A DNA stretch of 64,000 nt from Raineya sp. (lineage in GTDB: Bacteria; Bacteroidota; Bacteroidia; Cytophagales; Thermonemataceae), in the NCBI GenBank assembly GCA_025454915.1, contig JALONN010000010.1, forward strand, positions 12,339 through 76,338. Direction: 5' to 3'. Positions 9,165-59,003 of this stretch are shown one piece after another (the first letter of the stretch is position 1; every line of letters begins with the position of its first letter). Position numbers and translations under genes: made by a program. The notes under the pieces were generated by a model that saw only the letters and a list, made by a program, of their open reading frames with translations, was not told the DNA's origin and did no database searches.

Positions 9165-9202
9165 TACAAAACATTCAATAATTTTCTTAAAATTTGGTCA
9201 TT

Positions 9203-12105: not shown

Positions 12106-12248
12106 ATAAATGAGTTTTAGACTAAAAAGTAAAAATTGATGGGCAAATTTATTAAAATTGCGTCAATACATAGAAATTTTTTAGCAAATTTGCAGAATTA
12201 GTGATTCATAATATTTTGAATAACTCCATAAAAGAATTGTAAGTAAAG

Positions 12249-13385: not shown

Positions 13386-13399
13386 CATCAAACAATAAT

Positions 13400-14762: not shown

Positions 14763-14765
14763 TAA

Positions 14766-15173: not shown

Positions 15174-15762
15174 ACACTTTATGTAACGCCAATACCTGAG
15201 GTATAACGGCTTGTGTATCATCGTTATAAATAATATAATCTGCCAAACGTAATTTCTCTTCTTCTGGTAACTGCTTATCTATAATCGCCTTAATCTCAGT
15301 CTCGTTGCGTTGTGGGTCTCTTGCTTTTACTCTCTTAATGCGAATATACTCAGGAGCAAAAACAGTAATCAGTTTGTCTAAAAATTTATGAGAACCTGAC
15401 TCTATCATAAGAGCAGCCTCTCGGATTACATAAGGCTTATCAGCATGCTCTTGTACCCAAGCAATATAATCTTCAGCCACTTTGGGGTGTACTAAAGCAT
15501 TGATTTGTTTTACTTTCTGCTGATCATTAAATACCTGAGATGCTAAATAAGCTCTGTTTACAGAGCCATCTGCGTGATATGAATCTTTTCCAAAAGTTTC
15601 CTGAATAGATTTTTTGAGAGGTTCGTTGTGAGCCATGAGGTATTTGGCTCTACTATCTGCATCATAAATGGGAGCTCCCAATACAGCAAATATATGGGCT
15701 ACTATACTCTTTCCAGAACCAATACCACCTGTAATGCCTATTTCTAGGGGCTTTTTATTCAT
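15157..15762 (-). CDS. coaE: dephospho-CoA kinase
   Basis: IGITGGIGSGKS P-loop, with typical length and layout. Confidence 0.9.
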   Translation of the reverse strand: MNKKPLEIGITGGIGSGKSIVAHIFAVLGAPIYDADSRAKYLMAHNEPLKKSIQETFGKDSYHADGSVNRAYLASQVFNDQQKVKQINALVHPKVAEDYIAWVQEHADKPYVIREAALMIESGSHKFLDKLITVFAPEYIRIKRVKARDPQRNETEIKAIIDKQLPEEEKLRLADYIIYNDDTQAVIPQVLALHKVFTSSE

Positions 15763-16724
15763 TTCTTAGGGATTTTTATTTTTGTATGAGGGTTAATTAC
15801 TTTGGCATCTTCTACACCTTGCGGAATTCTTTCGAGTTGCAAGGTGATGGTAGAGTCTTCAGTATTAAATTTCGAATAATCAGCAATCACTTTAAAGTCT
15901 GTTAAATCAATTTCATTTTCCATTTGAGCTTTAAACACACACATAATTTCAGCTTGTTCAATAGGAAGTTCATAACCTTCAGGAAAATTGAGTCTTTCTA
16001 TATTGAATTTTACTTTTTTACTGAAAAACTGCTCTACATCAAAAGTTACTTTTACACTTTGTTGAGCTTTCAGGTTGGGACGTTCCAGATAAGAAAGACT
16101 AACAAGTTTATCAAATTTTTTACGAATACCTACTTCTCTGATATTGATGGCAATAGAGTCGGGCAACTGATTGATTTTCTCTACACTGCCTTCAAAAAAT
16201 ATTTGTTGAGGATTGACTTTGATAGGACCTGAGATACGGAAACCTTCTGCCAAAGCTACTTTATCCTTATCAACAACTACTTTGACAAGCTTTCTTACAT
16301 TACGATTGTTATTTACAAAAAAAGTATCTGTAAAAATTTCTGTAATGCGTAAATCTGAGTCTATTTTTTGAGCTAATAAACTTCTCAGAGAACCAGCAAT
16401 TACATAGTTTTGTTGCTGATTGATAGGCATTTTGTATATAACAGCTTTTTTTTCCTGATTGGCTAGGTATTCTTTTGCTATTTTCCAGCCTGTACCTGTT
16501 ACAGTAAAACGAACATCTCTTGTAATAGTATCAGCATTCATACCATTGGTATATTGTAATTTGACAGGCATAGCCAGTGTATAACTATGTTCTGCATTAA
16601 ATGCATTAAACAGCCAAAAAAGGGTTGCAAACAAAACACTCATTACCATAGCCCTGAAGTTGCTTTGTTCTTCACCTATAAGAAGCTCTTTGAGCCAATG
16701 TAATATGTTTCTAAAGAAATGCAA
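15759..16724 (-). CDS. YbbR-like domain-containing protein (membrane-anchored)
   Basis: N-terminal TM segment (MVMSVLFATLFWLFNAF), then repeated beta-rich modules. It overlaps coaE by 4 nt, an arrangement I recall as common in Bacteroidota. Confidence 0.45.
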   Translation of the reverse strand: MHFFRNILHWLKELLIGEEQSNFRAMVMSVLFATLFWLFNAFNAEHSYTLAMPVKLQYTNGMNADTITRDVRFTVTGTGWKIAKEYLANQEKKAVIYKMPINQQQNYVIAGSLRSLLAQKIDSDLRITEIFTDTFFVNNNRNVRKLVKVVVDKDKVALAEGFRISGPIKVNPQQIFFEGSVEKINQLPDSIAINIREVGIRKKFDKLVSLSYLERPNLKAQQSVKVTFDVEQFFSKKVKFNIERLNFPEGYELPIEQAEIMCVFKAQMENEIDLTDFKVIADYSKFNTEDSTITLQLERIPQGVEDAKVINPHTKIKIPKK

Positions 16725-16822
16725 ATCTGAGAGTCTAAGATTTTTGGATAATTTATTTTAGCCAATAACAAAAGAAACAATTTTTTTTTATTTTGCCAAA
16801 ACAATTTATAATCCAGAAAAAT

Positions 16823-17650
16823 ATGCAAATACATACAATAGATACAGGCTTATTTAAATTAGATGGTGGGGCTATGTTTGGGGTAGTTCCTAAAACTATT
16901 TGGCAAAAATTAGTCCCTCCAGACACCAACAATTTATGTACTTGGGCAATGCGTTGTCTTTTGATAGAGAATGGTAAAAAACTTATTTTGGTGGATTGTG
17001 GGATGGGGACCAAGCAAGATGCTAAATTCTTTGGCTATTATGAGCCTCATGGAGAAGGTGAGTTAATCACGTCTATTAAAAAAGCTGGATACAGCCCCGA
17101 AGATATAACAGACGTACTGCTTACGCACCTCCATTTTGACCACTGTGGAGGAGCTGTGTCTAAACAAAATGATAAATTAGTATTAACATTTCCCAATGCA
17201 ACTTATTGGTCTAATCAGGCTCATTGGGATTGGGCTACCATCAAACCTAATGCTCGAGAAAAGGCTTCTTTTTTGAAAGAAAATATTTTGCCATTGCAAG
17301 AAAGCGGACACCTGAAATTCATAGAAAATGCATCTCCTTTTGAAAATATTGAAATTATTCAGGTAGATGGGCATACAGAAAAAATGATGTTGCCATTAAT
17401 CAGTTATAAAAATACTAAAATTCTTTATTGTGCAGATTTAATACCCTCTTCAGCTCATATACCTATTCCGTATGTGATGGGTTATGATATGCGTCCACTG
17501 CAAACCATTGAAGAAAAAGAAAAAATACTAGCTCAAGCTGTTGCTGAAAATTGGCTGCTTGCTTTTGAGCATGATGCTCAGATAGAGGCTTGTAGCCTCC
17601 AAAATACAGAGAAAGGAATTAGAATGAAAGAGGCTATACAATTGAAATAA
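16823..17650 (+). CDS. MBL-fold metallo-hydrolase
   Basis: THLHFDHCGG motif. ATG at 16823 (MQIHTIDTGLFKLDGGAMFG). Confidence 0.8.
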   Translation: MQIHTIDTGLFKLDGGAMFGVVPKTIWQKLVPPDTNNLCTWAMRCLLIENGKKLILVDCGMGTKQDAKFFGYYEPHGEGELITSIKKAGYSPEDITDVLLTHLHFDHCGGAVSKQNDKLVLTFPNATYWSNQAHWDWATIKPNAREKASFLKENILPLQESGHLKFIENASPFENIEIIQVDGHTEKMMLPLISYKNTKILYCADLIPSSAHIPIPYVMGYDMRPLQTIEEKEKILAQAVAENWLLAFEHDAQIEACSLQNTEKGIRMKEAIQLK

Positions 17651-17741
17651 TGATAGTTTTTAGAAAATTTTTGAATAGTTTTTTGGAAAAAAAATAAATA
17701 AAGTCCAAATTTAACCGAATAAAACACAATATTGAAATCGA

Positions 17742-18728
17742 ATGAGCAACAGAATCATACAATTCAGAGAAGCTTTGCGTGAAGCAATGAGCGAAGAAAT
17801 GCGTAGAGACCCTCGTGTTTTCTTGATGGGTGAAGAAGTAGCACAATATGATGGAGCATACAAAGTGAGCCAAGGCATGCTTGCAGAGTTTGGAGCAGAA
17901 CGAGTAATTGATACACCCATTGCTGAACTTGGCTTTGCAGGAATAGGGGTAGGAGCAGCGATGAACGGCTTACGCCCTATCATTGAATTTATGACTTTCA
18001 ACTTTTCGCTAGTAGCAATAGATCAGGTAATCAATTCTGCTGCTAAAATGATGTCAATGTCTGGTGGGCAATATTCTGTACCAATTGTGTTCAGAGGTCC
18101 TACTGGAAATGCTGGTATGCTTAGCTCACAACACTCTCAAAACTTTGAGAATTGGTATGCCAATACACCAGGACTTAAAGTGGTTGTGCCATCTAATCCT
18201 TATGATGCAAAAGGCTTATTAAAGTCTTCTATCCGAGATGAAGATCCTGTTATTTTCATGGAATCTGAATTGATGTATGGAGATAAAGGTGAAGTGCCTG
18301 AAGAAGAATATCTAATCCCAATTGGTAGTGCAAAAGTAACACGTTCAGGAAATCAGGTGACTCTTGTGTCTTTTGGAAAAATGATGAAAGTTGCTCATAG
18401 TGCTGCTGAAGAAGCTGCTAAAGATGGTATTTCTGTTGAAGTGATAGACTTGCGTTCTGTACGTCCCATTGATTACAAAACAGTAATTGAATCTGTAAAG
18501 AAAACCAATCGTTTGGTAGTTTTAGAAGAGGCTTGGCCTTTAGCCGCCATTTCTTCTGAAATTGCTTATTATGTTCAGCGTCATGCTTTTGACTACTTGG
18601 ATGCTCCTGTGTATCGTGTCAATAGTATGGATGTGCCACTTCCTTATGCACCTACGCTGATTGATGCCATCTTGCCAAATGTAAAACGTACTTTGGATGC
18701 CATCAAAGCAGTAGCTTATAAGAAATAG
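17742..18728 (+). CDS. pdhB: pyruvate dehydrogenase (2-oxoacid dehydrogenase) E1 component, beta subunit
   Basis: REALREAMSEEMRRDPRVFLMGEEVAQYDGAYKVSQG, VIDTPIAELGFAGIGVGAAMNGLRP, EVIDLRSVRPID. Confidence 0.9.
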   Translation: MSNRIIQFREALREAMSEEMRRDPRVFLMGEEVAQYDGAYKVSQGMLAEFGAERVIDTPIAELGFAGIGVGAAMNGLRPIIEFMTFNFSLVAIDQVINSAAKMMSMSGGQYSVPIVFRGPTGNAGMLSSQHSQNFENWYANTPGLKVVVPSNPYDAKGLLKSSIRDEDPVIFMESELMYGDKGEVPEEEYLIPIGSAKVTRSGNQVTLVSFGKMMKVAHSAAEEAAKDGISVEVIDLRSVRPIDYKTVIESVKKTNRLVVLEEAWPLAAISSEIAYYVQRHAFDYLDAPVYRVNSMDVPLPYAPTLIDAILPNVKRTLDAIKAVAYKK

Positions 18729-47648: not shown

Positions 47649-47766
47649 ATGAAAAAGCTATTTTATTGGTTCATTTATATATTAATGGTATTTCCTTTGC
47701 TTCTTTGTTGGGCAAGTGAAAAACAAACCAAAAATATTTTATAACATAGTTTTAAAGAAAAGTTTT
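47649..47766 (+). pseudogene. frameshifted remnant of an ancestral signal-peptide N-terminus of the ankyrin-like paralog family
   Basis: ATG 47649 encodes MKKLFYWFIYILMVFPLLLCWASEKQTKNIL*. gggcaagtgaaaaacaaaccaaaaa (47709-) matches gggcaagtgaaaaacaagaccaaaa of the paralog at 50265-. The homologous VKNK(P/T)K frame continues into the next gene. Confidence 0.45.
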
Positions 47767-50091
47767 ATGAAAAAAATCTGCTTGTTGTTAATTTCTATGC
47801 TTATATGTATGTGTGCATATACACAAGATGCCTTATTGGATAGTGCTCAGTTGGCAAAATTTAGCGAAAATAGCTTTCGTAGCTATTCTGGTCTTAAATT
47901 AATTGATAATTGCTGTCCTGCTGGAGTGACTGGGCTATACATGAGTAGTGGAGATCAGGGAGAATTAAAATTTGAAAAAATACATCTATTCACAAAATTA
48001 CAAGTATTACATATTTCAGGATATTATAAATTGGATATTTCTATACCCAAGGAGATAGGGTTGCTGAAAAACTTACAAGTATTGAAAATAGAAAATAATA
48101 AATCTATTTCTTTACCAAAAGAAATAGAAGCACTCCAAAACTTAAGATTACTGGATTTATCTCACAACAAACTCACTTCTTTACCTAACGGAATAGAAAC
48201 GTTGGGAAATTTGGAAATATTAAATCTATCTAATAACAAACTCACATCTCTGCCTAAAGAAATAGGAAAACTAAAAAAACTGAAAGTATTAAAATTATCT
48301 AATAATATGCTCAATTCCTTACCAGAAGAAATCATGGAATTAGAAAATTTAGAGGTATTAGAGTTAGGAAGAAATCTTTTTATAAAAGTACCAGAAGGCA
48401 TATGGAAGTTAAAGAAAATTAGGGTGATAGATTTATCTGGAAACAATAATCTTGCTTTGACAGACAACTTTGGTAAGCTAAAAACCCTCCAAGAACTATA
48501 TTTCTATGCAATTTATGACGACTTCGCAAATACCCCTCGTCCCATAAAGATACCCAAATCAATAGGTGATTTAGATAATTTGAAAATATTGGGTATCTCC
48601 CACAATAACTTGACCATAGTTCCTAAAGAAATATGGTCATTGAAGAATTTAAAAAAATTATATCTAAATGATAATAAACTTACTTCAATACCCAAAGAAA
48701 TAGCAAATTTAAAAAATTTAGAGAATTTAGATATAAGTAATAATAAAATTAAATTTTTACCCAAAGAAATAGAAACCTTGCCAAAAATAAAAGTAATAGA
48801 AACTGAGGGTAATTTATTTAAAAAGAAATTTCTCGCACATGACGAATTACGTTCAGCTCTTTATGATGGTAGATACAAAGATGCTCTTAAATATATCTCG
48901 CAAGGGGCGGATATACGGAAAGCTCGTGATACAATGGAAAGCGTGAGTGTGAACAGAATAGGGAAAACAGTACCCAATTATGTTAGAGAAAATTCTGGTT
49001 CAAGTCCAAGAGTGGGAGCATTTATTGGCTTCCTTTTGCCTTTTGTGGCAGCAGCTGAAGGGCTTTCCCAAAAAAGTGGTAGTAATAATAGTCCTGTAAA
49101 TTGTAAAATTGTGGATATAGCTCTCAACGATGCCTTAGGAGATACCATCAAAAGCCCTGAAAGGCTAAAAGTTATGGAATATGCTCTGCAAAAAGGAGCA
49201 ACTCCTGATGACCTTCGTTTATATTTGGCTGTAGAAAATAGAGATGTAGAGGCAACACGCTTACTGATGCAATACAAAGCTGAAGCAGATAGTGATTGGT
49301 TTTGGAAATGGACATTACCCACTTGTCAATGCTTAGACTCCACAGATAAAAATAAATATAATCCTGAACGTTTCGCTTCTTTTAAACAAGTAGTAGGAGT
49401 AGTTTTAAAAAACAAGCCTAAGTTAAGTGATGTAACCTTAGAACGCTTTTACACAAGTCCAGTTCTAACAAAGATGTTATTGGAGTTTTATACCCCAGAA
49501 GAACTCCACACCATACATAACCCTCTTTATACAGCTTGTGGATATTTTGACTTGGAGTTATTTAAAGAATATGAAGCATTGGGTTTTAGTAAATTTGATA
49601 TTTATAAGAATGAAAAGTTTTATAAATATCTTGGAGGCAATAGCAGATGGGCAAAAATTTATGAATACATCTATCCAAAAGGTTTTGATGTGAATTTTAA
49701 AATCCCTCCTTATAACCAATTCGAGCGTGAAAAAACATTTTTTTGTCGTATTATAGAGTATTCTACCATAGATGTAGATGTAATGAAAACACTTTTAACC
49801 ATGAAACCTGATTTCTGTGTACCTTGTAATCCTTTGGGGGTGCTACAAAAGAGAATAGCATGGTGTAAAAGACTTCTGGATTCAGAAAAAAATAGTAAAT
49901 ATTATAATGAAGACCTCAATCGTTATAAGAAATCACTTGCCATTGAGCCTCTTTTAGAAGAGTATTATAAGACTTTGCCAAAGGAGCAAAAGAAAATCAT
50001 TCTTAAAAGCCTAAAAAAATATCAGACCTCTGAATATGACCTTTCAGTTTTCCTAAAAAAGACTTATATTAAGAAACTCAAAAAACTATAA
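47767..50091 (+). CDS. secreted LRR + ankyrin-like fusion protein (paralog 1)
   Basis: Signal peptide MKKICLLLISMLICMCAYTQ, then about 12 LRRs (LRLLDLSHNKLTSLPNGIETLGNLEILNLSNNKLTSLPKEIGKLKKLKVL..). From HDELRSALYDGRYKDALKYISQGADIRK to the end it is homologous to 50096-51538. Ankyrin-like: YLAVENRDVEATRLLMQYKAEAD. Confidence 0.8.
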   Translation: MKKICLLLISMLICMCAYTQDALLDSAQLAKFSENSFRSYSGLKLIDNCCPAGVTGLYMSSGDQGELKFEKIHLFTKLQVLHISGYYKLDISIPKEIGLLKNLQVLKIENNKSISLPKEIEALQNLRLLDLSHNKLTSLPNGIETLGNLEILNLSNNKLTSLPKEIGKLKKLKVLKLSNNMLNSLPEEIMELENLEVLELGRNLFIKVPEGIWKLKKIRVIDLSGNNNLALTDNFGKLKTLQELYFYAIYDDFANTPRPIKIPKSIGDLDNLKILGISHNNLTIVPKEIWSLKNLKKLYLNDNKLTSIPKEIANLKNLENLDISNNKIKFLPKEIETLPKIKVIETEGNLFKKKFLAHDELRSALYDGRYKDALKYISQGADIRKARDTMESVSVNRIGKTVPNYVRENSGSSPRVGAFIGFLLPFVAAAEGLSQKSGSNNSPVNCKIVDIALNDALGDTIKSPERLKVMEYALQKGATPDDLRLYLAVENRDVEATRLLMQYKAEADSDWFWKWTLPTCQCLDSTDKNKYNPERFASFKQVVGVVLKNKPKLSDVTLERFYTSPVLTKMLLEFYTPEELHTIHNPLYTACGYFDLELFKEYEALGFSKFDIYKNEKFYKYLGGNSRWAKIYEYIYPKGFDVNFKIPPYNQFEREKTFFCRIIEYSTIDVDVMKTLLTMKPDFCVPCNPLGVLQKRIAWCKRLLDSEKNSKYYNEDLNRYKKSLAIEPLLEEYYKTLPKEQKKIILKSLKKYQTSEYDLSVFLKKTYIKKLKKL

Positions 50092-50165
50092 CTGTATGCT
50101 TCACATTCATCGAACTACTGAAAATAAAACGCAACAAGAACAAACCAATTTCTATGCTCAAAGCA
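48836..50165 (+). repeat. segmental tandem duplication, unit 1 (C-terminal 1.25 kb of paralog 1, a 4-nt spacer, and a copy of the giant-gene leader)
   Basis: Near-identical blocks at both ends when compared with 50303-51609, for example ctttatgatggtagatacaaagatgctcttaaatatatctcgcaagggg and tcagttttcctaaaaaagacttatat.aagaaactcaaaaaactataactgtatgcttcacattcat. Confidence 0.85.
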
Positions 50166-51538
50166 GGGAAAAACATGTTTTTTCTCTTGTTGTTCTTTCG
50201 ATAAGTATGAAAATAGCATTATGTGTTATTTTGCTATTCCCTTTTCTTGTATTAGGGCAAGTGAAAAACAAGACCAAAACACAAACAAGGCCCAAAGAAC
50301 CACCTCATGAGGAGCTACGTTCTGCCCTTTATGATGGTAGATACAAAGATGCTCTTAAATATATCTCGCAAGGGGCAGATATACGTAAAACAGATACCTT
50401 AGAAACACTAAGAGTTTCCAGAGAAAAGCAGGGAACATTGGATTATCCCGAAACTTCAAGTCCAAGAGCAGGAGCATTTATTGGCATCATTTTGCCTTTT
50501 GTGGCTGCTGCCGAAGGGCTTGCCCAAAAAAGTAGCAGTAGCAGTTCTTTTTCTGTTACCTGCAAAATTGTAGATATAGCTCTCAATGATGCCTTAGAAG
50601 ATACCATCAAAAGCCCTGAAAGATTAAAAATTATAGAGTACTGTTTGCAAAAAGGAGCAGACCCTGATGGGGCATACAAGTATATACCCTTATATTTGAG
50701 TATTACACAGAGAGATATAGAAATAACCAAACTACTTCTTCAATACAAAGCAAAACCTGATGTTTCTGCCCTTTGGACATATATTCTTAGAGGTTGTCCA
50801 TGTGTAGATACATCAGCTAATAGCCAAGATACTAAAAAAGTAGAATCTTTCAAAAATGTGGTGGGTTTACTTTTAGAAAAGAAACCCAAATTGGAGATGA
50901 GTACACTTGGGAAATTTTATAAAAAACCAGAATGGACAAAATGGCTCTTGAAGTATTATACCTTAGAAGAGTTAAATAAAATGAATAATCCCATTTACAC
51001 AGCTTGTTATTATGCTGATTTGAAATTATTTAAAGAATATGAGACTATGGGTTTTGGTAAATCTGATATTTATAAAAATGATAAACTTTATGATACTATT
51101 GCACTATATAATGCTAAGTTTTATGAATACATCTATCCAAAAGGTTTTGATGTGAATTATGAACATAAATTTGGTGATAAACTAACCTTTTTTTGTCGTG
51201 TTATTGAGTATTCTACAGATGTAGATTTTATAAGAATACTTTTAACTATGAAACCTGATTTTTGTGTACCTTGTAATCCTCTGGGATTGTTACAAGAAAA
51301 AATTATTCGATATAAAAATAATTTAGAAAAATCTAAAGATGACAAAGATTATAATAAATATCTTACTCGTTACAACAAATTACTTACTATTGAGCCTCTG
51401 TTAGAAGATTACTACAAGACTTTACCCAAAGAGCAAAAAAAAATCATTCTTGAAAGTCTAAAAAAATATAAAACCTATAGATATGAACTTTCAGTTTTCC
51501 TAAAAAAGACTTATATCAAGAAACTCAAAAAACTATAA
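50096..51538 (+). CDS. ankyrin-like protein (paralog 2). Annotated from the duplicated leader ATG; the alternative start at 50207 gives a classical signal peptide
   Basis: MLHIHRTTENKTQQEQTNFYAQ (copy of the giant-gene N-terminus), then SREKHVFSLVVLSIS, then MKIALCVILLFPFLVLGQVKNKTKTQ.., then EELRSALYDGRYKDALKYISQGADIRK. All of it is in one open frame. Confidence 0.75.
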   Translation: MLHIHRTTENKTQQEQTNFYAQSREKHVFSLVVLSISMKIALCVILLFPFLVLGQVKNKTKTQTRPKEPPHEELRSALYDGRYKDALKYISQGADIRKTDTLETLRVSREKQGTLDYPETSSPRAGAFIGIILPFVAAAEGLAQKSSSSSSFSVTCKIVDIALNDALEDTIKSPERLKIIEYCLQKGADPDGAYKYIPLYLSITQRDIEITKLLLQYKAKPDVSALWTYILRGCPCVDTSANSQDTKKVESFKNVVGLLLEKKPKLEMSTLGKFYKKPEWTKWLLKYYTLEELNKMNNPIYTACYYADLKLFKEYETMGFGKSDIYKNDKLYDTIALYNAKFYEYIYPKGFDVNYEHKFGDKLTFFCRVIEYSTDVDFIRILLTMKPDFCVPCNPLGLLQEKIIRYKNNLEKSKDDKDYNKYLTRYNKLLTIEPLLEDYYKTLPKEQKKIILESLKKYKTYRYELSVFLKKTYIKKLKKL

Positions 51539-51609
51539 CTGTATGCTTCACATTCATAGAACTACTGAAAATAAAACACAAGAACAAACCAATTTCTATG
51601 CCCAAAACA
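50303..51609 (+). repeat. segmental tandem duplication, unit 2
   Basis: See unit 1. The ends are nearly identical and the middle is more diverged (SPRVGAFIGFLLPFVAAAEGLSQKSGSNNSPVNCKIVDIALNDALGD versus SPRAGAFIGIILPFVAAAEGLAQKSSSSSSFSVTCKIVDIALNDALED). Confidence 0.85.
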
Positions 51610-54600
51610 TAGAAACTAAAAATACTGCTTTCCAAAATCAAAATAACTTTAAACCCTTAGGAGGTGACCCTCCTGATAAAGAAGCTATTGATGAAATGAT
51701 GAAAATCTTAAAAGAAGGGAAATTGACTAAAACAAAAGCAGAAGAAATTTTTGGAAAGTATGCAGAATTAAAAGAAGATGCTAAAGCAGAAAAAGATGAA
51801 TCTGGAAATCCAAATCCTTTATATATTAAAGGCGTAGATTTTGAGAAAGGCATATTTCCTGTTCCTCAACAAGAGCATTATAAGAATGAAAAAAAAGAAG
51901 ATGACAAAGAAGCATACGAAAAAGCTATGATTCACCATAAGAATCGTCTCAAATTATACAGAATATATGTTGGTTACGATTATTATGGTAAAGTTCTTCC
52001 TATTCTGCGTAGGATACTGAGGAAACAGATTTGGTTCAATGCTGTGAAATCTTGGGAAGCAATAGAGGCTTACCATATTCTAGATGATATGCAACCTGAA
52101 TACAGAGAGATTTTTGCTAACGAAGAGCCAATTCTTAACGATCGTATTTTTGGTGAACTTCCAATAGAATTTAGAACACAACAAAAATCTGCTCTACAAA
52201 AAGGAATTGCTTCCAAAGACCATGAGAGGCTTACAAAAGACCTTGAAAAAGCTATAAAGACAAACAATATTCTTCTTATTAAACTTTTGATAGCAATTGC
52301 TATAGAAGCTGGCTTAGAGAAAACCCTACCTGAAACCATCCAACAAAATGAAATTGTAAAGGGAGAAATAGCAAAGCTAGGTCGAAAAACAACAGGAGAG
52401 GCAGCCCAGGATATTCAACAAAAGAGAAAAGGCAGACATGCTATTTATAGACGCAACCTTGATAAAATTTATCAAAAAAACGCATTTAAAGATCCACGTG
52501 AAGCTCAAGAAGCTCCTGATCAGGTAGACAAAGATGCTGTGATAAGAGGGAAAGAAGCAGGAGGTATTGGTAAAATGACTTTGGGTTTTTTAGGAGAAAG
52601 ATTATCATTTTATGGAGATACGTTAAGTGGCTTGAATGCTGATGATGATCCGTCAATAGTATTAAAAAAAGCTTTAAAACTATCTGTTCAAATAGGTAAA
52701 GATTTCTTAGGTAAAACTAATACGCTTGAGAGTTTTGATTTAGAAAGATTTCAGGGAAGCATGGGAGGCTCACTGATGGGGCTGGAAGTAAGTAAAACGA
52801 ATAATCATCAAAAAGATACCCTTTTTAAAGATGATGAGAAAAAGGTGAGTGAAGAAGATAAACAGGACATGAAAAACTTAGAAAATGGAAATTTATCAGC
52901 ATGGATTGATTTTAGAAATGGAGAAATAAAAGTAATAGCAAATGCAATACCTTTCAAAAGTTTGAACTATTTGGCAGGAGATATGGCTTTTAAAGCTACT
53001 GAAGGAGCTTTTAATCAGATTTTCATGAAAATGAAATGGAACCCAAAAGTGAAAAAAGAAGAAGAAGTCGTTGCAGATATTGACTTGGTTGCAGGAGGTG
53101 TAGTGCTTGAGGGGATGCGAATGATTACAGATGAAGAAACCTATGGAATAGGTAAGATATTAGCCAAGGGATTACAAATTTCCATGAAACAAACCATTGG
53201 AATAGGGAAAGATCTTAAAGGATGGAAGAAACCAATTAACTTATTATTCAATACAATAGGAGCCATGAATAATATGATATTCCTTCTTATTAATTCTGCA
53301 ATGGTTACTTATCAGAGACTTGCCAATGTAGAAAACAAGCAAGATGAGTTTTCAATGGCTCAAGCCGATTTTACGAAAGCCTTGGGGGCTTCTCAGAATA
53401 ATTTCTTTGATTTAAAATATATGAAAGTAGCAGATATTGTGCTACAAAACTTTTATAGCACTTCTATGGGTAGAATAGGTGAAATAGGTTTGGGAGGTAA
53501 TAATATTAAGTTACAATCTGATGAAGCATCCTTTTCTCAGGATGAAAAAGCTACACTTTTTAAAAAGAAAAAAGAATTAAAGAAACTTCAAGGAAAGTTG
53601 GAAGAGGTATTAGATAGAAGGGCTAATATGAAGAGAAAAAAACAAGTAGAAAGATTTACAAAAAAACCCAAGTTAACAAAAAAACAGGAAGATATAGAGA
53701 AGCTAGAAGTTGAAATAGCCCAACTAGAGAAAAAACATAATCTCAAATTAGGATTTGAGACTAGCCATTTGGAACTTAAAGAGGCAGATATGATACAAGA
53801 AATGATGGCTAAAATGCTTAAAGAGAGCTTCAAAGAGAGTGGCATGGAAATGGAAGGTGTACAGGGCTTAGATGGTTTTGAGTTGCCTCAAGGTTTAAAA
53901 TTGGGAACATTTGTAAAGGATAAAAATAATACAGAAAAGAATACACAAATATCCCCAGAACAAATTAAAGACTTGAGTATTGATGTTCCCAAGATTGTAT
54001 TTTTAAATCCTGTTACAGCCTCAAAACTTACTTATACAGGTAAAAAAGACCTCATAGATAAACAAACCAATCAGCCTATCAAAGAAAAAGGGAAAACGAA
54101 GAAGGAAGACACCATGCAAGTGATAGGTACTGATGTTGTATTCACAAAACTTGAATTGGGGTTGAAAATAGATTTTGCAGATTATGATAAATCAAAACCT
54201 CCGAAAGAAGAGGATAGTCTTATTGAAAATATGGAAATCAAGGGGTTGAAAGCAGAAACAGCCAGTTTTGGAACTTTTCAGTTCAAACTGCCAAACCCAT
54301 TTGATCCTATTAAAAAGGTGAGAAAGGAGGGAACAAAGGATGAAACAAAGGATGAAACAAATTTTTATGATGTATTAGACTTCAAAGATCAAGTTACTTT
54401 TCATGATTTTGATTTTAGTTTTCTTGAAAAAGCTGAGGACCCAATTACTTTAAAAATCGGAAAAATTGAACAAACCAAAAAAACACCTACTAATGTGAAC
54501 GGTATGCAATACAATTATAGGTATAAAAAGACCGAAAAAAATGAGAAAGGTGAAGATGTAGAAACAAATATTAAAGTAAATGGGAGCTTTAGTATGTTAA

Positions 54601-57587
54601 ATAAAATTGATCCTAAAGAAAAAAAACTCAATCCTGAAGCAAAAGGTGAGCCTAGCCTATCAGGGTTAACTTTTACAAGAGAAAACAAAAATGACGGAAA
54701 AAAAGACATTGATAAAATATTACTGGGTAAGTTATTTTTTCAGAATAACAAATTAGAAAACTTCTATTTTAAACAAGGAGATCTAGAGGTAAAAGGGAAT
54801 AATGCAATAATGGAGCATATAGATTTAGAAGGTTTAGTATTTGAAATGCAAACTGAATACGACTCTAAAGATAAGAAAAATGTAATCAGTAGCAGTGAAT
54901 ATTTACGATCTCTTCAAAACCTTTTTATAAATAGGATTCATTTTGGAAGTAACTTTATAATTACGAAAGCAGGTAAAGAGTATAAATTAGGTAGTGGAAG
55001 TATAGACAAGCTGAATGCAAAAAACTTGGAGTTGGATTTTCAGGGTAAAGATAAATTTGAAATGTTTAAAAAGGGAGAGATATCTTTTGCTCATTTTAAT
55101 TTGAGTAATCTTGCTTTGGATAGTTTGAGTAAATTGAATTATTTTAATCTCAAGGATTTTAGTATAGAAAGGGTTAAAGATGCAAAAGAGGATGTTATCA
55201 AATTTAAGGGTGAGCAAAGTATCGGATATCACAAAAACAATAATACATCTTCTTTGAATGTAGGGGCTTATAGCAAATTGTCAGGAATATATGATAAAAA
55301 GGAAATTATGACCAAAGATGAAAACGAGAAATGGATAGGTACTGGAACGTATACATACTCTTTCAAGACAGATTTAGATGATTTCGGGAGCAATATCGCA
55401 CTATCAGATGATAAAAAAGATGTCAAAACTGAAATAGGTGCCCCTAAAATAAGTATCAAGACAGATTTTGAAACATACGCAGACATAGATTTTGGAGATT
55501 ATATATCAATGAAAAGCCTGAATTACGAATCCAAAGATGGGATGTATATTAGAGGGTCTAATTATGATAATGGTTTGATAAGATTAGAAAACCCATCAGC
55601 AAAATTGAAATTAGTAAAAGATAAAAAAACAGATAAATTCACAAACATAGAAATAGAACAATTCCATCTCAAGAAAATAGTAGCCTCCAAACTGGACTTT
55701 GGACAATATCATAAAGTTACAGAAGAAGATAAAAAAAGTGACCTTGAGAACAAAACAGAGAAATATAAAAATTATTCCATAGGAAGTATTGATAAACGAG
55801 CGGGGTATGAAGATGCAACATTTGCATTAAAAAATGGAAAAACGGCTAGTCTTACAGATGTGTATTTATCAGGGAATTTTAGGTTGTCAGATGGAGCTCT
55901 CGCTCTAAAAGGTGGAGCTAAAGAAGTGAATTTAGAAGAATTAAAAGCAGTTCTTTCACAAAGTGCTGTATTTTTAAATCCTTATTTGAAAGCAGATAAT
56001 CTCACTTTTAGTAGAGAATATAATGGAGATATGGATGCAAAAGTAAATAATTTTAGGACTGGCTTGAGGGATAATGAAATAACAATGCAACCTAATAATA
56101 TGGGAATGATTAAATTGGAACAATCAGCAAATAATAAAGATACTCCTGTTTTACAATCACATACACTTACTTATAATTATAATAAAAAAGAAGATAAAAC
56201 AGAGGTCATCATAAAAGACCCAAAATTGGGAGCGATTGTACTTGAAGGGCATTTTCGTGGATACAATGGAACTTCAGGTATAGCTCTCCAAAAAATGATT
56301 ATGCAAGGAGAAATGAAGGGAGATTTCAAACTTACAGATACTCCAACAGAAACGATTTTAGATGGAAAAGATTTTATATTCCAAATTCCAGAAGCTTATT
56401 TTGTAGCCAATAGCATGTCAGACCTTTTCAGCCTTACCAAACCAGAAGAAAAGAAAGAGCAAAATAATAGCAATACTAATTTCACTACTGAAGAAGATAA
56501 TAGCCGATTCAAACAACTTGAAAGGCGAGAATATGCAAAGCTTGATACTAATCCTGATTTGGTAAAAAATTATGTTAAGAATCAAGCTCGTGAGAGGCTC
56601 CATAATGAAAAAAAACAAGAAGAGTTTAATAAATTATCACAAGATTTTGCATTTATGAATCTATTTACAGATAGTAGTATTGTCTTTAATGCTTTTGGAG
56701 AGGAATTTATTTTACAACCAGAACCTATTTATGCAACAAGCCTCAGAGCACGCCGAGCGGATGCCCACATAGATGTATTTTCGTTTTTAAAATCTATTGC
56801 AGATTTAACAGCTAATAGACTAATAGAACTTTACAGCGTTTCATTTCAAATTCCTGCAAATAATGAAGCAAAAGGATTTATACAAATACTGGAATATATA
56901 AGCAAGTGGGTTGCTAAAAATGGTTCTTCGGCTATTTTACAAAGTTTTGAAAACTTTGTGGAAGAAAGGTGTGGTAATATTTTTAAAGAAGTAGGAGATA
57001 AAAAATACATTCAGATGTCTGAGTTTGCTGCATTGTGTAGTATGTTAGGGGATATGCAAGAAGATTTGATAGAAAGAATTATGGAAGTACCCATCATTGA
57101 TTTTGGAAAAGGGATATATGATTTTTTTTCTGAACCAAGTTCAGAACCTGTAGACCCTGAACAATTAATACCTTCTTTCGTTGAAATGGTTGTTTCAATG
57201 ATGCAACCACGATTTACATTACATGCTAAAGGTTCAGGATTCAAAGACTACAATAAAGGTATGCTAAAACCATATATGGAAAGTGATTTCACAAAGCAAG
57301 CTTTTTCAAGTGAAGGATTTCTAACATTTCAGTTAGCAAATAATAGAAATCCTCTAATTAGTCTTCAAAATTGGAACTTTGAAGGTTTTAGTTTGCCAAT
57401 TTCTAAAGGAAAAGGTAAATTATCTACCAAATCAATGGGTATATCACAATTAACATTTTTTAAACAGAATGGACTAAAGAAATCAGGATTAGTAAACTTA
57501 GATGCAAAAAATGTGTACTTGAAAGGGCTATACATGATAATAAATAAGACCAAAGATACTGATAAAGAAAAGAAAACTGGAAAATAA
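51543..57587 (+). CDS. giant (2014-aa) K/E/D/N-rich orphan protein with no signal peptide; candidate CIS cargo/effector or accessory component
   Basis: A single uninterrupted 6-kb ORF in AT-rich DNA. The polar N-terminus is MLHIHRTTENKTQEQTNFYAQNIETKN. I see only two Cys (ERCGNIF, AALCSML). No HExxH, P-loop or other catalytic motif recognised. Confidence 0.8.
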   Translation: MLHIHRTTENKTQEQTNFYAQNIETKNTAFQNQNNFKPLGGDPPDKEAIDEMMKILKEGKLTKTKAEEIFGKYAELKEDAKAEKDESGNPNPLYIKGVDFEKGIFPVPQQEHYKNEKKEDDKEAYEKAMIHHKNRLKLYRIYVGYDYYGKVLPILRRILRKQIWFNAVKSWEAIEAYHILDDMQPEYREIFANEEPILNDRIFGELPIEFRTQQKSALQKGIASKDHERLTKDLEKAIKTNNILLIKLLIAIAIEAGLEKTLPETIQQNEIVKGEIAKLGRKTTGEAAQDIQQKRKGRHAIYRRNLDKIYQKNAFKDPREAQEAPDQVDKDAVIRGKEAGGIGKMTLGFLGERLSFYGDTLSGLNADDDPSIVLKKALKLSVQIGKDFLGKTNTLESFDLERFQGSMGGSLMGLEVSKTNNHQKDTLFKDDEKKVSEEDKQDMKNLENGNLSAWIDFRNGEIKVIANAIPFKSLNYLAGDMAFKATEGAFNQIFMKMKWNPKVKKEEEVVADIDLVAGGVVLEGMRMITDEETYGIGKILAKGLQISMKQTIGIGKDLKGWKKPINLLFNTIGAMNNMIFLLINSAMVTYQRLANVENKQDEFSMAQADFTKALGASQNNFFDLKYMKVADIVLQNFYSTSMGRIGEIGLGGNNIKLQSDEASFSQDEKATLFKKKKELKKLQGKLEEVLDRRANMKRKKQVERFTKKPKLTKKQEDIEKLEVEIAQLEKKHNLKLGFETSHLELKEADMIQEMMAKMLKESFKESGMEMEGVQGLDGFELPQGLKLGTFVKDKNNTEKNTQISPEQIKDLSIDVPKIVFLNPVTASKLTYTGKKDLIDKQTNQPIKEKGKTKKEDTMQVIGTDVVFTKLELGLKIDFADYDKSKPPKEEDSLIENMEIKGLKAETASFGTFQFKLPNPFDPIKKVRKEGTKDETKDETNFYDVLDFKDQVTFHDFDFSFLEKAEDPITLKIGKIEQTKKTPTNVNGMQYNYRYKKTEKNEKGEDVETNIKVNGSFSMLNKIDPKEKKLNPEAKGEPSLSGLTFTRENKNDGKKDIDKILLGKLFFQNNKLENFYFKQGDLEVKGNNAIMEHIDLEGLVFEMQTEYDSKDKKNVISSSEYLRSLQNLFINRIHFGSNFIITKAGKEYKLGSGSIDKLNAKNLELDFQGKDKFEMFKKGEISFAHFNLSNLALDSLSKLNYFNLKDFSIERVKDAKEDVIKFKGEQSIGYHKNNNTSSLNVGAYSKLSGIYDKKEIMTKDENEKWIGTGTYTYSFKTDLDDFGSNIALSDDKKDVKTEIGAPKISIKTDFETYADIDFGDYISMKSLNYESKDGMYIRGSNYDNGLIRLENPSAKLKLVKDKKTDKFTNIEIEQFHLKKIVASKLDFGQYHKVTEEDKKSDLENKTEKYKNYSIGSIDKRAGYEDATFALKNGKTASLTDVYLSGNFRLSDGALALKGGAKEVNLEELKAVLSQSAVFLNPYLKADNLTFSREYNGDMDAKVNNFRTGLRDNEITMQPNNMGMIKLEQSANNKDTPVLQSHTLTYNYNKKEDKTEVIIKDPKLGAIVLEGHFRGYNGTSGIALQKMIMQGEMKGDFKLTDTPTETILDGKDFIFQIPEAYFVANSMSDLFSLTKPEEKKEQNNSNTNFTTEEDNSRFKQLERREYAKLDTNPDLVKNYVKNQARERLHNEKKQEEFNKLSQDFAFMNLFTDSSIVFNAFGEEFILQPEPIYATSLRARRADAHIDVFSFLKSIADLTANRLIELYSVSFQIPANNEAKGFIQILEYISKWVAKNGSSAILQSFENFVEERCGNIFKEVGDKKYIQMSEFAALCSMLGDMQEDLIERIMEVPIIDFGKGIYDFFSEPSSEPVDPEQLIPSFVEMVVSMMQPRFTLHAKGSGFKDYNKGMLKPYMESDFTKQAFSSEGFLTFQLANNRNPLISLQNWNFEGFSLPISKGKGKLSTKSMGISQLTFFKQNGLKKSGLVNLDAKNVYLKGLYMIINKTKDTDKEKKTGK

Positions 57588-57650: not shown

Positions 57651-59003
57651 CTACATAATAATATCCTTCCACATAGGAAGGTTTAATTCTTTACACATAG
57701 CTGTAATATCATGGTATCCTTTTCCTTGAACAATATAGAAGTTTCTTAAAGTCCTAAAAAATTTCTCCCTGTCAAAAACATAAGCATTCTCTGAGCTATC
57801 TTCTAAAGCTTGAACTTTACAAAAACGGGCAAAACTCTTGATCCAAGCTCCATTCATATCTTTGAGTTTATCTGCCACATATTCAATAGGTACATTGTTG
57901 AAAAAAAACTCTTCAAAAGCCTTCGCCCATATTTCATAACGAATAGTGGGGTAAGGCTGACTAAACTCAAATCTCAACTGAAAACGTCTCTTGAAAGCCT
58001 CATCCAAATTGTCTTTTTTGTTGGTACAAAGAAATAAAATTCCATCAAAATCCTCCATTCTTTGAAGTAGATAGGCTATTTCCTGATTTCCATATCTATC
58101 ATTGGCAGATTTGTTGTCTGTTCTTTTACCCAGCAAAGCATCTCCTTCATCAAAAAAGAGAATCCAGTCTTTATTTTGAGCCAAATCGAAGACATATTTA
58201 AGGTTTTTCTCAGTTTCACCCACATATTTGGAAACAATCTGAGAGAGGTCAATTCTGTACACATCTCTGCCTACTTCTTTTCCCAAAATACCTACACTGA
58301 CAGTTTTACCAGTACCAGATTCACCCCAAAACAAAGCTTTGAAACCCTTTGAACCTTTGTACTGAGGATTATTATTGAGTTCAGGATAATGTTTCATCCA
58401 AGCTTTTACATCCATCAAACAATCTCTTACAGAAGGATTTAAGACCAAATCATCCCAAGTTTCGTCTGTTTGGTATAAACTGGCAGGAAATGAGGAACTG
58501 TAAGTATAATAATACTTTCTATTCATCACCACTCTAAAATAAAATTCAGGAGAAATTTCTAAAGCACAATCCTCCATTGCAGGATTTTTAGAAAAAGGCT
58601 TTAGAATGTTGTTTTTAAACAAAGGACTCTCTTTTTGTAGAAAGTTATTAATAATCTGAATTCTTTCTAAATGTTGCTTTCCTGCAAGTAAAAACAAAGC
58701 TGTACGAACAGTAGGAGAAAAAGTGCCATCTTCTTGATTAATGCCTCCATGTAAAGAAGGTTCAGGACTACTTTTTTCTATACTTTTGAATCTATCAAAA
58801 ATAGAGGGATTAAAAGCATAAGCCAAAGCTAAAAGAGCTATTATAATTTCTTCTGGTTCTGAAATACCTTCTTTTTGCCATTCTTCAAGGTCTTCAATAT
58901 AAATAGATTGTGGAATTTCTACATAATTAATAATCTCCTCTAATTTATCAACTTTACTTTTTAAAAGTTCCTCAAGCCACAACAACTGTTTTATTATATT
59001 CAT
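57651..59003 (-). CDS. AAA+ ATPase of the Afp15/Pvc15 (contractile-injection-system-associated) type
   Basis: Single AAA module at the C-terminus: FWGESGTGKT (Walker A), SKYVGETEKNLKYVFDLA, ILFFDEGDALLGKRTDNKSANDRYGNQEIAYLLQRMEDFDGILFLCTN (Walker B and sensor region), FKRRF. The unique N-terminal domain is about 220 aa. Confidence 0.75.
   Translation of the reverse strand: MNIIKQLLWLEELLKSKVDKLEEIINYVEIPQSIYIEDLEEWQKEGISEPEEIIIALLALAYAFNPSIFDRFKSIEKSSPEPSLHGGINQEDGTFSPTVRTALFLLAGKQHLERIQIINNFLQKESPLFKNNILKPFSKNPAMEDCALEISPEFYFRVVMNRKYYYTYSSSFPASLYQTDETWDDLVLNPSVRDCLMDVKAWMKHYPELNNNPQYKGSKGFKALFWGESGTGKTVSVGILGKEVGRDVYRIDLSQIVSKYVGETEKNLKYVFDLAQNKDWILFFDEGDALLGKRTDNKSANDRYGNQEIAYLLQRMEDFDGILFLCTNKKDNLDEAFKRRFQLRFEFSQPYPTIRYEIWAKAFEEFFFNNVPIEYVADKLKDMNGAWIKSFARFCKVQALEDSSENAYVFDREKFFRTLRNFYIVQGKGYHDITAMCKELNLPMWKDIIM

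What the first reader, a model, noticed from the sequence alone, without database searches (positions are those of the whole stretch)
50096..51609. The first 21-22 codons of the giant gene are duplicated in frame onto the upstream paralog: a portable N-terminal leader?
Seen in the sequence:
- ...aaactcaaaaaactataactgtATGcttcacattcat.gaactactgaaaataaaac.caa(caa)gaacaaaccaatttctatgc.caaa occurs at both 50074-50165 and 51521-51609.
- Paralog 2 can therefore start MLHIHRTTENKTQQEQTNFYAQ. The giant protein starts MLHIHRTTENKTQEQTNFYAQ.
- In paralog 2 the copy stays open for 37 codons until it reaches the native signal-peptide ATG (50207). The protein could thus be made either with the polar leader or with a Sec signal.

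Established knowledge: PVC/eCIS cargos are recruited through N-terminal leader regions with help from the AAA+ ATPase.

Recollection, to be verified: the leader weakly resembles the '..LHLQRTIGNQAVQ..' N-termini that I recall on DUF4157/eCIS-associated proteins.

Inference: dual targeting through alternative starts would be novel.
Basis: partly seen in the sequence, partly recalled or inferred. Interest (0 to 1): 0.6.

Follow-up and report, generated by a model that had tools for sequence, protein, structure and literature searches.

The report
Duplicated start region fused onto paralog
A tandem gene duplication copied the start site and first 22 codons of a giant injection-system-associated gene onto the front of a neighbouring ankyrin-like gene, most likely giving that gene a new start codon rather than a shared cargo-loading tag.

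Summary
The stop codon, a 4-nt spacer, the ATG and 21-22 codons occur twice (50089-50165 and 51536-51609). In paralog 2 the copy runs in frame for 37 codons into the signal-peptide ATG at 50207.

It is the right-hand end of a 1.45-kb tandem duplication whose breakpoint lies about 25 codons inside the 2014-aa gene. The copy is not a decaying scar. A 122-nt tract (50041-50162) is 97.5% identical, against about 75% for the rest of the unit, and its few changes leave the leader peptide unaltered apart from one Q. This fits gene conversion and/or selection on the start region.

By this genome's own start-site features, 50096 looks like a strong start and 50207 like an internal Met. The long form is therefore probably the main product, and the extension would be removed with the signal peptide.

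The giant belongs to a family whose other members carry DUF4157/eCIS_core, and it lies next to an Afp15-type ATPase paralog, so a loading role for its N-terminus is plausible. Portability is not supported:
- no third copy in this genome, or in the two public contig collections scanned;
- a second ANK-giant-ATPase module on contig C5 has a different N-terminus;
- the likeness to the LQRTIGNQAV motif is weak.

Earlier scan notes on this window already described the duplication. This is an ordinary duplication chimera of modest interest.

The parts
47650..47750 (+). Relic of the ancestral signal-peptide start of paralog 1. It is now frameshifted. Its 3' half (..VGQVKNKPK) is in frame with paralog 1.
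   Evidence: Read. It is 88% identical over 25 nt to the end of paralog 2's signal peptide (family D15).
47767..50091 (+). Paralog 1: own signal peptide, LRR domain, then an ankyrin-like C-domain (homologous part 48838-50088).
   Evidence: Pfam LRR hits; alignment to paralog 2.
50041..50162 (+). High-identity tract, copy A: last 17 codons of paralog 1, TAA, 'ctgt', ATG and 22 leader codons.
   Evidence: 97.5% identical to 51488-51606, against about 75% for the rest of the unit. Sharp left edge at 50040.
50096..50165 (+). Leader copy on paralog 2 (MLHIHRTTENKTQQEQTNFYAQ) and predicted main start codon of paralog 2.
   Evidence: MFE over -40..+40 is -1.0 kcal/mol. Start score +6.1.
50166..50206 (+). 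Junction segment, probably the former 5' leader of the ankyrin-like gene, now codons 24-37 of the long form (SREKHVFSLVVLSIS).
   Evidence: No counterpart in the giant gene. It is open in frame.
50181..50237 (+). Two predicted RNA hairpins flanking the ATG at 50207.
   Evidence: Fold of 50170-50250: -12.3 kcal/mol, z = -3.1, 3 of 200 shuffles fold as well.
50207..50257 (+). Family-typical Sec signal peptide of paralog 2 (MKIALCVILLFPFLVLG), with Q at +1 (50258).
   Evidence: The single-copy C5 paralog starts the same way (MKLLFYLCLCLPLGIFA|QVKK). Q-rule: PMC5837995. No signal-peptide predictor was run.
50096..51538 (+). Paralog 2, long ORF (480 aa): ankyrin-like protein.
   Evidence: Weak Pfam Ank hits. 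Atlas features match ankyrin clusters at 0.95.
51488..51606 (+). High-identity tract, copy B: last 17 codons of paralog 2, TAA, 'ctgt', ATG and 21 leader codons.
51543..57587 (+). Giant 2014-aa protein, a member of a rare family of eCIS-associated giant proteins (candidate cargo).
   Evidence: 22 homologues among 1.8 billion representatives. Three of them carry PF13699. A paralogue sits in the C5 module.
57651..59003 (-). Afp15-type AAA+ ATPase paralog, convergent with the giant gene.
   Evidence: Pfam AAA. 44% identical to the ATPase in the C10 eCIS locus. 80% identical to the C5 module ATPase.

Best explanation
The repeat is a by-product of one tandem segmental duplication (unit about 1.45 kb) of an exported ankyrin-like gene.

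The ancestral layout was [signal peptide-ANK gene]-TAA-4 nt-[giant gene]. This two-gene arrangement is still seen once, undisturbed, on contig C5. The right breakpoint fell about 25 codons inside the giant gene. The new downstream copy (paralog 2) therefore inherited the intercistronic junction, the giant's start codon and its first 22 codons. These happened to be in frame with its own 5' leader and signal peptide.

The copied piece is the giant's complete translation start region. It sits 4 nt after the upstream stop and is A-rich, G-poor and essentially unstructured. Ribosomes should therefore start at 50096 about as well as at 51543. The old ATG at 50207 now lies between hairpins in a poor context.

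Paralog 2 is thus most likely made as a 480-aa precursor. Its 37-residue extension lengthens the n-region of a Sec signal peptide and is discarded at the LG|Q cleavage site, so the mature protein is unchanged.

The 122-nt tract is kept nearly identical in the two places by gene conversion, by selection for an accessible start region, or by both. It is not shown to be a cargo-loading tag.

Shown: the duplication, the identity pattern, the start-site features and the family links. Inferred: which start is used, cleavage of the extension, and the cause of the homogeneity.
For: Duplication architecture and breakpoints:
- Shown: - A conserved module SP-ANK -> giant (3-4 nt apart) -> Afp15-type ATPase exists a second time on C5. 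There the ANK gene starts directly at its signal peptide.

The copy is not a neutral scar:
- The C-domains have dS 0.76-0.81 and dN 0.26.
- The 21 aligned leader codons have 0 non-synonymous differences, where about 16 are expected under drift (P about 5e-9).
- Synonymous divergence across the tract is 3-4 differences in 23 sites, against pS 0.495 elsewhere (P 0.0003-0.0015).
- Low synonymous divergence also covers the last 17 codons of the upstream gene. That tail is not conserved in the C5 paralog. This points to homogenisation at nucleotide level.
- Gene conversion is active in these modules. The two module ATPases are 50-70% identical in the 5' 500 nt and mostly 96-98% in the 3' 800 nt.

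Start-site features:
- MFE over -40..+40 is -1.0 (50096) and -0.8 (51543) kcal/mol. That is the least structured 1% of 1348 start windows (median -6.9).
- 50207 gives -13.7, more structured than 96% of starts and typical of internal ATGs (median -12.6).
- A start-versus-internal weight matrix trained on this genome scores 50096 and 51543 at +6.1 (72nd percentile of starts) and 50207 at -0.4 (11th percentile).
- The C5 paralog's signal-peptide ATG has a start-like window of -3.8.
- In Bacteroidota, initiation is tuned by mRNA structure rather than Shine-Dalgarno pairing (PMC6847099).

Other:
- Q at +1 after the h-region fits the Bacteroidetes Q-rule (PMC5837995).
- No third copy of the leader was found.
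Against: - No expression, start-mapping or proteomic data exist. No RNA run was listed.
- 50207 keeps A at -3 and -6, which favour initiation in Bacteroidota (PMC6847099), so some short form cannot be excluded.
- Whether a signal peptide with a 38-residue n-region and an extra hydrophobic stretch (VFSLVVLSIS) is still exported and cleaved was not tested. No signal-peptide predictor was available.
- All 2-3 substitutions in the leader are synonymous and the indel is in phase (P about 0.03-0.1 if one copy were free). This leaves room for selection on the peptide itself.
- In a related metagenomic fragment (P0016), residues 1-22 are better conserved (19 of 21) than residues 23-45 (15 of 23). This also hints that the first 22 residues, or their codons, matter in the giant.
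Confidence: 0.6

Rival explanations
1. Shared eCIS loading leader. Residues 1-22 are recognised by the adjacent Afp15-type ATPase. The duplication put that tag on the ankyrin-like protein, so the long form is loaded into particles while a short form made from 50207 is exported by Sec (dual targeting).
For: - The giant is cargo-like. It lies next to an eCIS-type ATPase paralog. Homologues carry DUF4157 behind a polar N-terminal region, which is the architecture of AlgoCIS cargos.
- The N-terminal region of AlgoCIS cargos is required for Alg15-dependent loading, and cargos of one system share similar N-terminal regions (bioRxiv 10.64898/2026.05.27.728243).
- The leader has no non-synonymous change between the copies.
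- It resembles the LQRTIGNQAV motif better than all but about 0.1% of N-termini in this genome, and 2-4 of 1000 shuffles reach its score.
- The two module ATPases differ mainly in their N-domains, as expected if these read different leaders.
Against: - The leader is found only in the two copies made by one duplication.
- Giant-2, the 602-aa protease and the C10 candidates share no N-terminal similarity with it.
- Only 22 residues are shared, whereas known loading regions are about 50 residues or longer.
- The long form keeps a complete Sec signal peptide right behind the tag.
- 50207 looks like a poor start, so two isoforms are not predicted.
- Low synonymous divergence extends into the upstream gene, which peptide selection does not explain.
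- A strict profile of the motif scores the leader at -20 bits.
Confidence: 0.12
2. Passive scar, recently homogenised. The copy has no role. Paralog 2 is expressed from 50207. The near-identity reflects a recent gene-conversion tract, and the upstream start gives at most a minor, harmless isoform.
For: - 50207 is the family-typical start and keeps A at -3 and -6.
- The tract has sharp edges and includes synonymous sites of the upstream gene.
- Gene conversion is evident between the module ATPases.
- An in-frame, open junction has about 0.11 probability by chance.
- Two to three synonymous-only changes are only marginally unlikely (0.03-0.1).
Against: - The start region at 50096 is the same as that of the 2014-aa gene, and both score as strong starts. 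If the giant is translated, so is the long form.
- Ribosomes reading from 50096 pass through 50207.
- 50207 is flanked by hairpins (z = -3.1) and scores in the 11th percentile of true starts.
Confidence: 0.25
3. Assembly artefact: the repeat was mis-joined in a metagenome-assembled genome.
For: The genome is in 33 contigs and the best-holding run is a wetland metagenome. Unitigs break at the 40-nt identical core.
Against: - A source-run unitig spans 50081-50356 with no differences. It links the paralog-2-specific leader variants to the unique signal-peptide region.
- Depth is even, at about 32x.
Confidence: 0.02

Closest known systems
Chimeric gene starts created by tandem segmental duplication (a duplication junction fusing the 5' end of one gene to another)
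   Same: There is a direct repeat with a unit of about 1.45 kb. One breakpoint lies inside the downstream gene. The downstream gene's start codon and first codons are fused in frame to the duplicated gene. Later mosaic gene conversion acted between the copies.
   Different: Here the captured piece is the whole intercistronic junction of a tightly coupled operon. It sits in front of a Sec signal peptide, so the mature protein may be unchanged.
N-terminal loading sequences of eCIS cargos (PVC Pdp1/Pnf packaging domain; AlgoCIS Cgo1/Cgo2 N-terminal region), read with the help of the Pvc15/Alg15 AAA+ ATPase
   Same: The leader is a polar N-terminus on a large protein encoded beside an Afp15-type ATPase. 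Relatives of that protein carry DUF4157. Two neighbouring proteins share the N-terminal sequence.
   Different: - Only 22 residues are shared.
- The sharing is explained by one local duplication.
- No other candidate cargo has the leader.
- The second bearer has a Sec signal peptide.
- No loading data exist.
The LQRTIGNQAV(Q)RLL motif in the N-terminal regions of DUF4157/eCIS_core proteins
   Same: The leader matches the motif in register at L, H, [IL], [HQ], R, T and N. A natural variant, LSLHRTVGNQAAGRLL, exists in a Bacteroidota DUF4157 protein (L050/L124).
   Different: - The invariant G, QA[AV] and the hydrophobic RLL are absent.
- The motif normally lies about 41 residues from the first Met and often precedes IGxPxDxxEQEAD and DUF4157. 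None of this holds here.
- PF13699 was not found in this genome.
Extended signal peptides with long n-regions (for example the ESPR of autotransporters; from my own knowledge)
   Same: If the long form is exported, it is a Sec signal peptide preceded by a polar extension of about 37 residues.
   Different: There is no sequence relation, and the extension here is a recent accident of duplication.

Membership tests
Tandem segmental duplication chimera | Collinear direct repeat whose unit spans a gene boundary | tested here: met
   48838-50165 versus 50306-51609, spacing 1444-1468 nt, collinear blocks D1-D7 and D9.
Tandem segmental duplication chimera | Junction fuses foreign 5' codons in frame to the duplicated gene | tested here: met
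   37 open codons from 50096 to 50207. The junction is confirmed in a source-run unitig.
eCIS cargo loading sequence (PVC/AlgoCIS type) | Borne by a protein genetically linked to an eCIS and its AAA+ ATPase | tested here: met
   - The giant is convergent with an ATPase that is 44% identical to the C10 eCIS ATPase.
- Family members carry PF13699.
- The structural eCIS locus lies on another contig.
- The V-W-J genes to the right lie beside phage-like genes.
eCIS cargo loading sequence (PVC/AlgoCIS type) | Similar N-terminal regions on several cargos of the same system | tested here: not met
   Only the two copies created by the duplication share it. There is no significant similarity among the N-terminal 70 residues of giant-1, giant-2, the 602-aa protease and the C10 candidates.
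eCIS cargo loading sequence (PVC/AlgoCIS type) | Necessary and sufficient for ATPase-dependent loading into the tube | not testable with these tools
   This needs particle purification with mass spectrometry or reporter fusions.
DUF4157/eCIS_core N-terminal motif LQRTIGNQAV | Motif core L[HQ]RT[IV]GNQA[AV] followed by xRLL | tested here: not met
   - The leader has LHIHRTTENKTQ.
- A profile built from 110 natural motifs scores it at -20 bits, rank 1005 of 3618.
- Only the BLOSUM62 ungapped score is unusual: rank 4 of 3618, reached by 2-4 of 1000 shuffles.
DUF4157/eCIS_core N-terminal motif LQRTIGNQAV | Position about 40 residues from the N-terminus, upstream of IGxPxDxxEQEAD and a DUF4157 domain | tested here: not met
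   - In 114 natural cases the median distance from the first Met is 41 residues. The leader starts at residue 2.
- PF13699 gave no hit in this genome, and the giant has no Pfam hit.
Sec/SPI signal peptide obeying the Bacteroidetes Q-rule (paralog 2, 50207-50257) | Short basic n-region, hydrophobic h-region, small residues at -3/-1, Q at +1 | tested here: inconclusive
   MK-IALCVILLFPFLVLG|QV was read directly. The C5 paralog has the same layout. Q-rule: PMC5837995. No predictor was run, and the effect of the 37-residue extension is unknown.
Alternative-start isoforms (dual targeting) | Two in-frame starts that both have start-site features | tested here: inconclusive
   50096 is strongly start-like. 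50207 is weak by structure (-13.7 kcal/mol) and by weight matrix (11th percentile), but keeps A at -3 and -6.

The most novel reading that the evidence does not exclude
The 22-residue N-terminus is a minimal recognition tag for the module's own Afp15-type ATPase. Tandem duplication has transplanted it onto a Sec-exported ankyrin-like protein. One gene then feeds two routes, or the tag diverts the precursor from export into an injection particle. This would be a natural example of cargo repertoires growing by copying a leader.
Probability: 0.1. Interest if true: 0.65.

Novelty: new member of a known kind. Interest (0 to 1): 0.3.

Why it matters
As it stands, this is a clear example of how a tandem duplication that cuts into the next gene can hand a complete start region and N-terminal codons to a paralog. 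It also shows how such a piece stays homogeneous, and it bears on where paralog 2 should be annotated to start.

It would matter more if the 22 residues proved to be a loading tag. Loading signals of contractile injection systems are poorly defined and system-specific. A natural transplant onto a second protein would give a minimal tag to test.

The wider context may be the more useful lead. The genome has two satellite modules (exported ankyrin-like protein, about 2000-aa protein, own Afp15-type ATPase with a diverged N-domain) that lie apart from the structural eCIS locus.

Tried and rejected
The 2-kb contig encoding P0016, the only outside sequence with this leader, could not be fetched.
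- A word-based homologue search with residues 1-500 of the giant found only the protein itself.
- A degenerate DNA pattern for LH[IV]HRTTENKT gave 0 matches in genome contigs and in metagenome contigs. P0016's own contig is evidently not in the metagenome collection, so these blanks do not show absence everywhere.
- tblastn and regular-expression scans of the whole genome found no third copy.
- No RNA holder was listed for the stretch. Laid contigs of two other metagenomes gave only short, low-depth pieces that do not inform on the junction.
- A strict profile of the LQRTIGNQAV motif does not recognise the leader. That profile was built from pattern-selected sequences and is over-strict, so a BLOSUM62 test was added.
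- Pairwise comparison of N-terminal regions of candidate cargos gave nothing significant after 36 comparisons.
- The Atlas search gave no usable hit for the giant.
- The sigma-70 promoter and terminator scan and the Bacteroidota -7 motif count were at chance level. No TAnnTTTG lies on the + strand between 49597 and 50691. This is weak support for co-transcription only.
- The shared HRTT with one G007 giant (YVHRTT), and HR near the start of a C10 protein, were judged too short to count.
Full report
**1. The observation**

The window lies at G000:C20:12339-76338 in a 4.9-Mb genome with 33% G+C and 33 contigs. Three co-oriented ORFs lie 4 nt apart:
- paralog 1, 47767-50091: signal peptide, LRR domain and an ankyrin-like C-domain;
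- paralog 2, 50096 or 50207 to 51538;
- a 2014-aa ORF, 51543-57587.

The text TAA-ctgt-ATG plus 21-22 codons is present at both gene junctions. From 50096 the frame is open for 37 codons up to the ATG at 50207, which begins MKIALCVILLFPFLVLG|QVKNK.

A unitig of the probable source run covers 50081-50356 without any difference. It links the paralog-2 variant of the leader to the unique signal-peptide region. The fusion is therefore not an assembly error.

**2. What produced it**

The repeat is the right-hand end of a tandem duplication with a unit of about 1.45 kb: 48838-50165 versus 50306-51609.
- The C-domains are 62% identical in protein, with dS 0.76-0.81 and dN 0.26. The duplication is therefore not recent, and both copies are under purifying selection.
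- Homology ends about 25 codons into the giant gene.
- The next 41 nt (50166-50206) have no counterpart there. They are probably the old 5' leader of the ankyrin-like gene.
- A frameshifted relic of the ancestral signal peptide lies upstream of paralog 1 (47650-47750). This agrees with an LRR module having been inserted into that copy later.

The undisturbed arrangement exists elsewhere in the same genome. On contig C5, a 399-aa signal-peptide-ankyrin-like gene is followed after 3 nt by a second giant gene and then by a 450-aa AAA+ ATPase. The second giant is 2091 aa and 25% identical to the first. The family-typical start of the ankyrin-like gene is therefore its signal peptide. The leader on paralog 2 is an addition.

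**3. The copy is not decaying**

The tract 50041-50162 covers the last 17 codons of the upstream gene, the stop, the spacer and 22 codons. Across it the two copies differ by three substitutions and one 3-nt indel (97.5% identity). The preceding 36 nt carry eight differences, and the unit as a whole is about 75% identical.

- The leader has no non-synonymous difference. About 16 are expected if paralog 2's copy had drifted since the duplication (P about 5e-9).
- Synonymous divergence in the tract is 3-4 differences in 23 sites, against 0.495 per site elsewhere (P 0.0003-0.0015).
- This deficit includes the tail of the upstream gene. That tail is not conserved in the C5 paralog.

The homogeneity is therefore at nucleotide level. 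It reflects gene conversion, selection on an RNA feature, or both.

Gene conversion is visibly active between these modules. The C20 and C5 ATPase genes are 50-70% identical in their first 500 nt and mostly 96-98% in the next 800 nt.

Given a recent conversion, two or three synonymous-only changes have a probability of 0.03-0.1. This is a hint of peptide-level constraint, not a demonstration.

**4. Which start is used**

No RNA or ribosome data are available. I therefore calibrated start-site features on this genome, using 1348 well-defined start windows and 1324 internal in-frame ATGs.

| ATG | MFE, -40..+40 (kcal/mol) | Weight-matrix score |
|---|---|---|
| 50096 | -1.0 | +6.1 |
| 51543 | -0.8 | +6.1 |
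| 50207 | -13.7 | -0.4 |
| median of true starts | -6.9 | +4.2 |
| median of internal ATGs | -12.6 | -4.7 |

- 50096 and 51543 fall in the least structured 1% of true starts. Their weight-matrix score is at the 72nd percentile of true starts and above 99.8% of internal ATGs.
- 50207 is more structured than 96% of true starts. Its weight-matrix score is at the 11th percentile of true starts.
- Two hairpins flank 50207 (z = -3.1).
- The signal-peptide start of the C5 paralog has a start-like window of -3.8.

In Bacteroidota, initiation is tuned by mRNA structure and by A at -3 and other upstream positions, not by Shine-Dalgarno pairing (PMC6847099). 50207 does retain A at -3 and -6, so a minor short form cannot be excluded.

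The start region at 50096 is the same as the giant's. If the giant is translated, the long form of paralog 2 should be translated too. The h-region followed by LG|Q fits the Bacteroidetes Q-rule for signal peptidase I substrates (PMC5837995). The 37-residue extension would then be removed with the signal peptide. This last step is inferred.

**5. Is the leader an injection-system tag?**

Parts of the context support the idea:
- The adjacent ATPase (57651-59003, minus strand) is 44% identical to the ATPase of a complete eCIS locus on contig C10. That locus has a sheath, tube proteins, a spike/hub protein with Phage_base_V and GPD matches, and a baseplate J protein.
- An exhaustive profile search found only 22 relatives of the giant among 1.8 billion representatives.
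- Three of these relatives (P0013, P0019, P0021) carry PF13699 eCIS_core/DUF4157 near their N-termini.
- This matches the cargo architecture described for AlgoCIS. There the disordered N-terminal region is required for Alg15-dependent loading and is similar between cargos of one system (bioRxiv 10.64898/2026.05.27.728243).

The giant is thus a plausible cargo with its own ATPase.

The leader itself, however, is not portable on present evidence:
- tblastn and motif scans of the genome find only the two copies.
- A degenerate DNA pattern finds none in the two public contig collections scanned.
- N-termini of the giant's homologues are all polar but unalike.
- Giant-2, the neighbouring 602-aa zinc protease and the C10 candidates share nothing significant with it.
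- The only outside match is a 65-aa metagenomic fragment, P0016 (MLHVHRTTENKTQQEH..). It continues like the giant, so it is an orthologue.

**6. The recalled motif**

L[HQ]RT[IV]GNQA[AV] is real and common.
- A degenerate scan hit more than 118 loci across many phyla.
- The motif lies a median of 41 residues from the first Met.
- In about 40% of cases, ExEAD and HExxHxxQ follow downstream.
- A Bacteroidota DUF4157 protein has the variant LSLHRTVGNQAAGRLL.

The leader aligns in register at L, H, I/L, H/Q, R, T and N, but lacks the invariant G, QAV and RLL.
- A strict profile rejects it at -20 bits.
- By BLOSUM62 it ranks 4th of 3618 N-termini. Two of those four are the leader copies themselves and the others are unrelated proteins. 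Two to four of 1000 shuffles reach its score.

This is a weak likeness at the wrong position. PF13699 itself was not found in this genome.

**7. Verdict**

The finding is a duplication chimera. A complete start region plus 22 codons of a cargo-like giant gene was copied in front of an exported ankyrin-like paralog. It most likely now serves as that gene's start and is kept uniform by gene conversion and/or selection for an open start region. Dual targeting by a portable leader remains possible at about 10%, but is not supported.

Noticed in passing
L024 (G000:C5:72000-90680), minus strand: 17590-18258, 16333-17532, 10054-16329, 8676-10028: This is a second satellite module in the same genome. 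It holds a 222-aa ORF with no Pfam hit (hydrophobic, by eye membrane-spanning), a 399-aa signal-peptide-ankyrin-like protein, a 2091-aa giant and a 450-aa AAA+ ATPase. The ATPase is 80% identical to the window's. Both modules lie apart from the structural eCIS locus on contig C10.
   Followed up: partly
window 57651-59003 (-) versus L024 8676-10028 (-): The two module ATPase genes are mosaic: 50-70% nucleotide identity over the first 500 nt (N-domain) and mostly 96-98% over the next 800 nt. Either gene conversion spared the N-domain or the N-domain was swapped. The N-domains might match the different N-termini of the two giants.
   Followed up: partly
window 51543-57587; proteins P0013, P0019, P0021: The 2014-aa 'orphan' belongs to a rare family (22 hits among 1.8 billion representatives) with a conserved core at about residues 380-930. 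Some members carry eCIS_core/DUF4157 at the N-terminus. It is therefore a cargo-type protein of contractile injection systems that lacks the DUF4157 module here.
   Followed up: partly
L004 815-4428 (= window 62476 onward), L001, and L002 12903-19264: Right of the window lie a spike (Phage_base_V), a sheath initiator, a baseplate J protein and a 347-aa protein, all on the minus strand. They are followed by phage-like genes: amidase, Gp157, methylase, helicase, capsid, tail S and a T4 gp19-type tube. The 'tail-like operon' at the window's right edge may therefore belong to a prophage rather than to an eCIS.
   Followed up: partly
L009 (G000:C10:313724-333723): This is a complete eCIS-type locus at a contig end: 947-aa protein, sheath, three tube-like proteins, a spike/hub protein (Phage_base_V and GPD matches), a 140-aa ORF in the position of a gp25-like gene (not searched against Pfam), a 1256-aa baseplate J fusion, and an ATPase on the opposite strand. 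A 432-aa and a 360-aa protein follow; the 360-aa one has a polar N-terminus.
   Followed up: partly
window 47650-47750: A relic signal-peptide start lies upstream of paralog 1. Its first half is out of frame and its second half (..VGQVKNKPK) is in frame with the LRR gene. This is consistent with an LRR module carrying its own signal peptide having been inserted into the older copy.
   Followed up: partly
loci L056-L173 (public genomes of many phyla): The N-terminal motif hh-LQRTIGNQAV-x-RLL is very widespread. It sits about 41 residues after the first Met. It is often followed by LQAKLxIGQPGDxYEQEADRVAEQVM and a DUF4157 domain, in archaea (Methanoperedens) as well as bacteria.
   Followed up: partly
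L025 (G007:C13:1-10559): A relative in the same family carries a unit of about 4.3 kb in two full copies plus part of a third (ORFs of about 497, 111, 491 and 203 aa). The 491-aa ORF (2220-3695 and 6538-8013) weakly matches the first 150 residues of the ankyrin-like C-domain.
   Followed up: no
window 50213-50237: A hairpin with a 6-bp outer stem (AAUAGC / GCUAUU) lies directly after the ATG at 50207, inside the signal-peptide coding region. Together with an upstream hairpin it makes this ATG unusually structured for a start (z = -3.1).
   Followed up: partly
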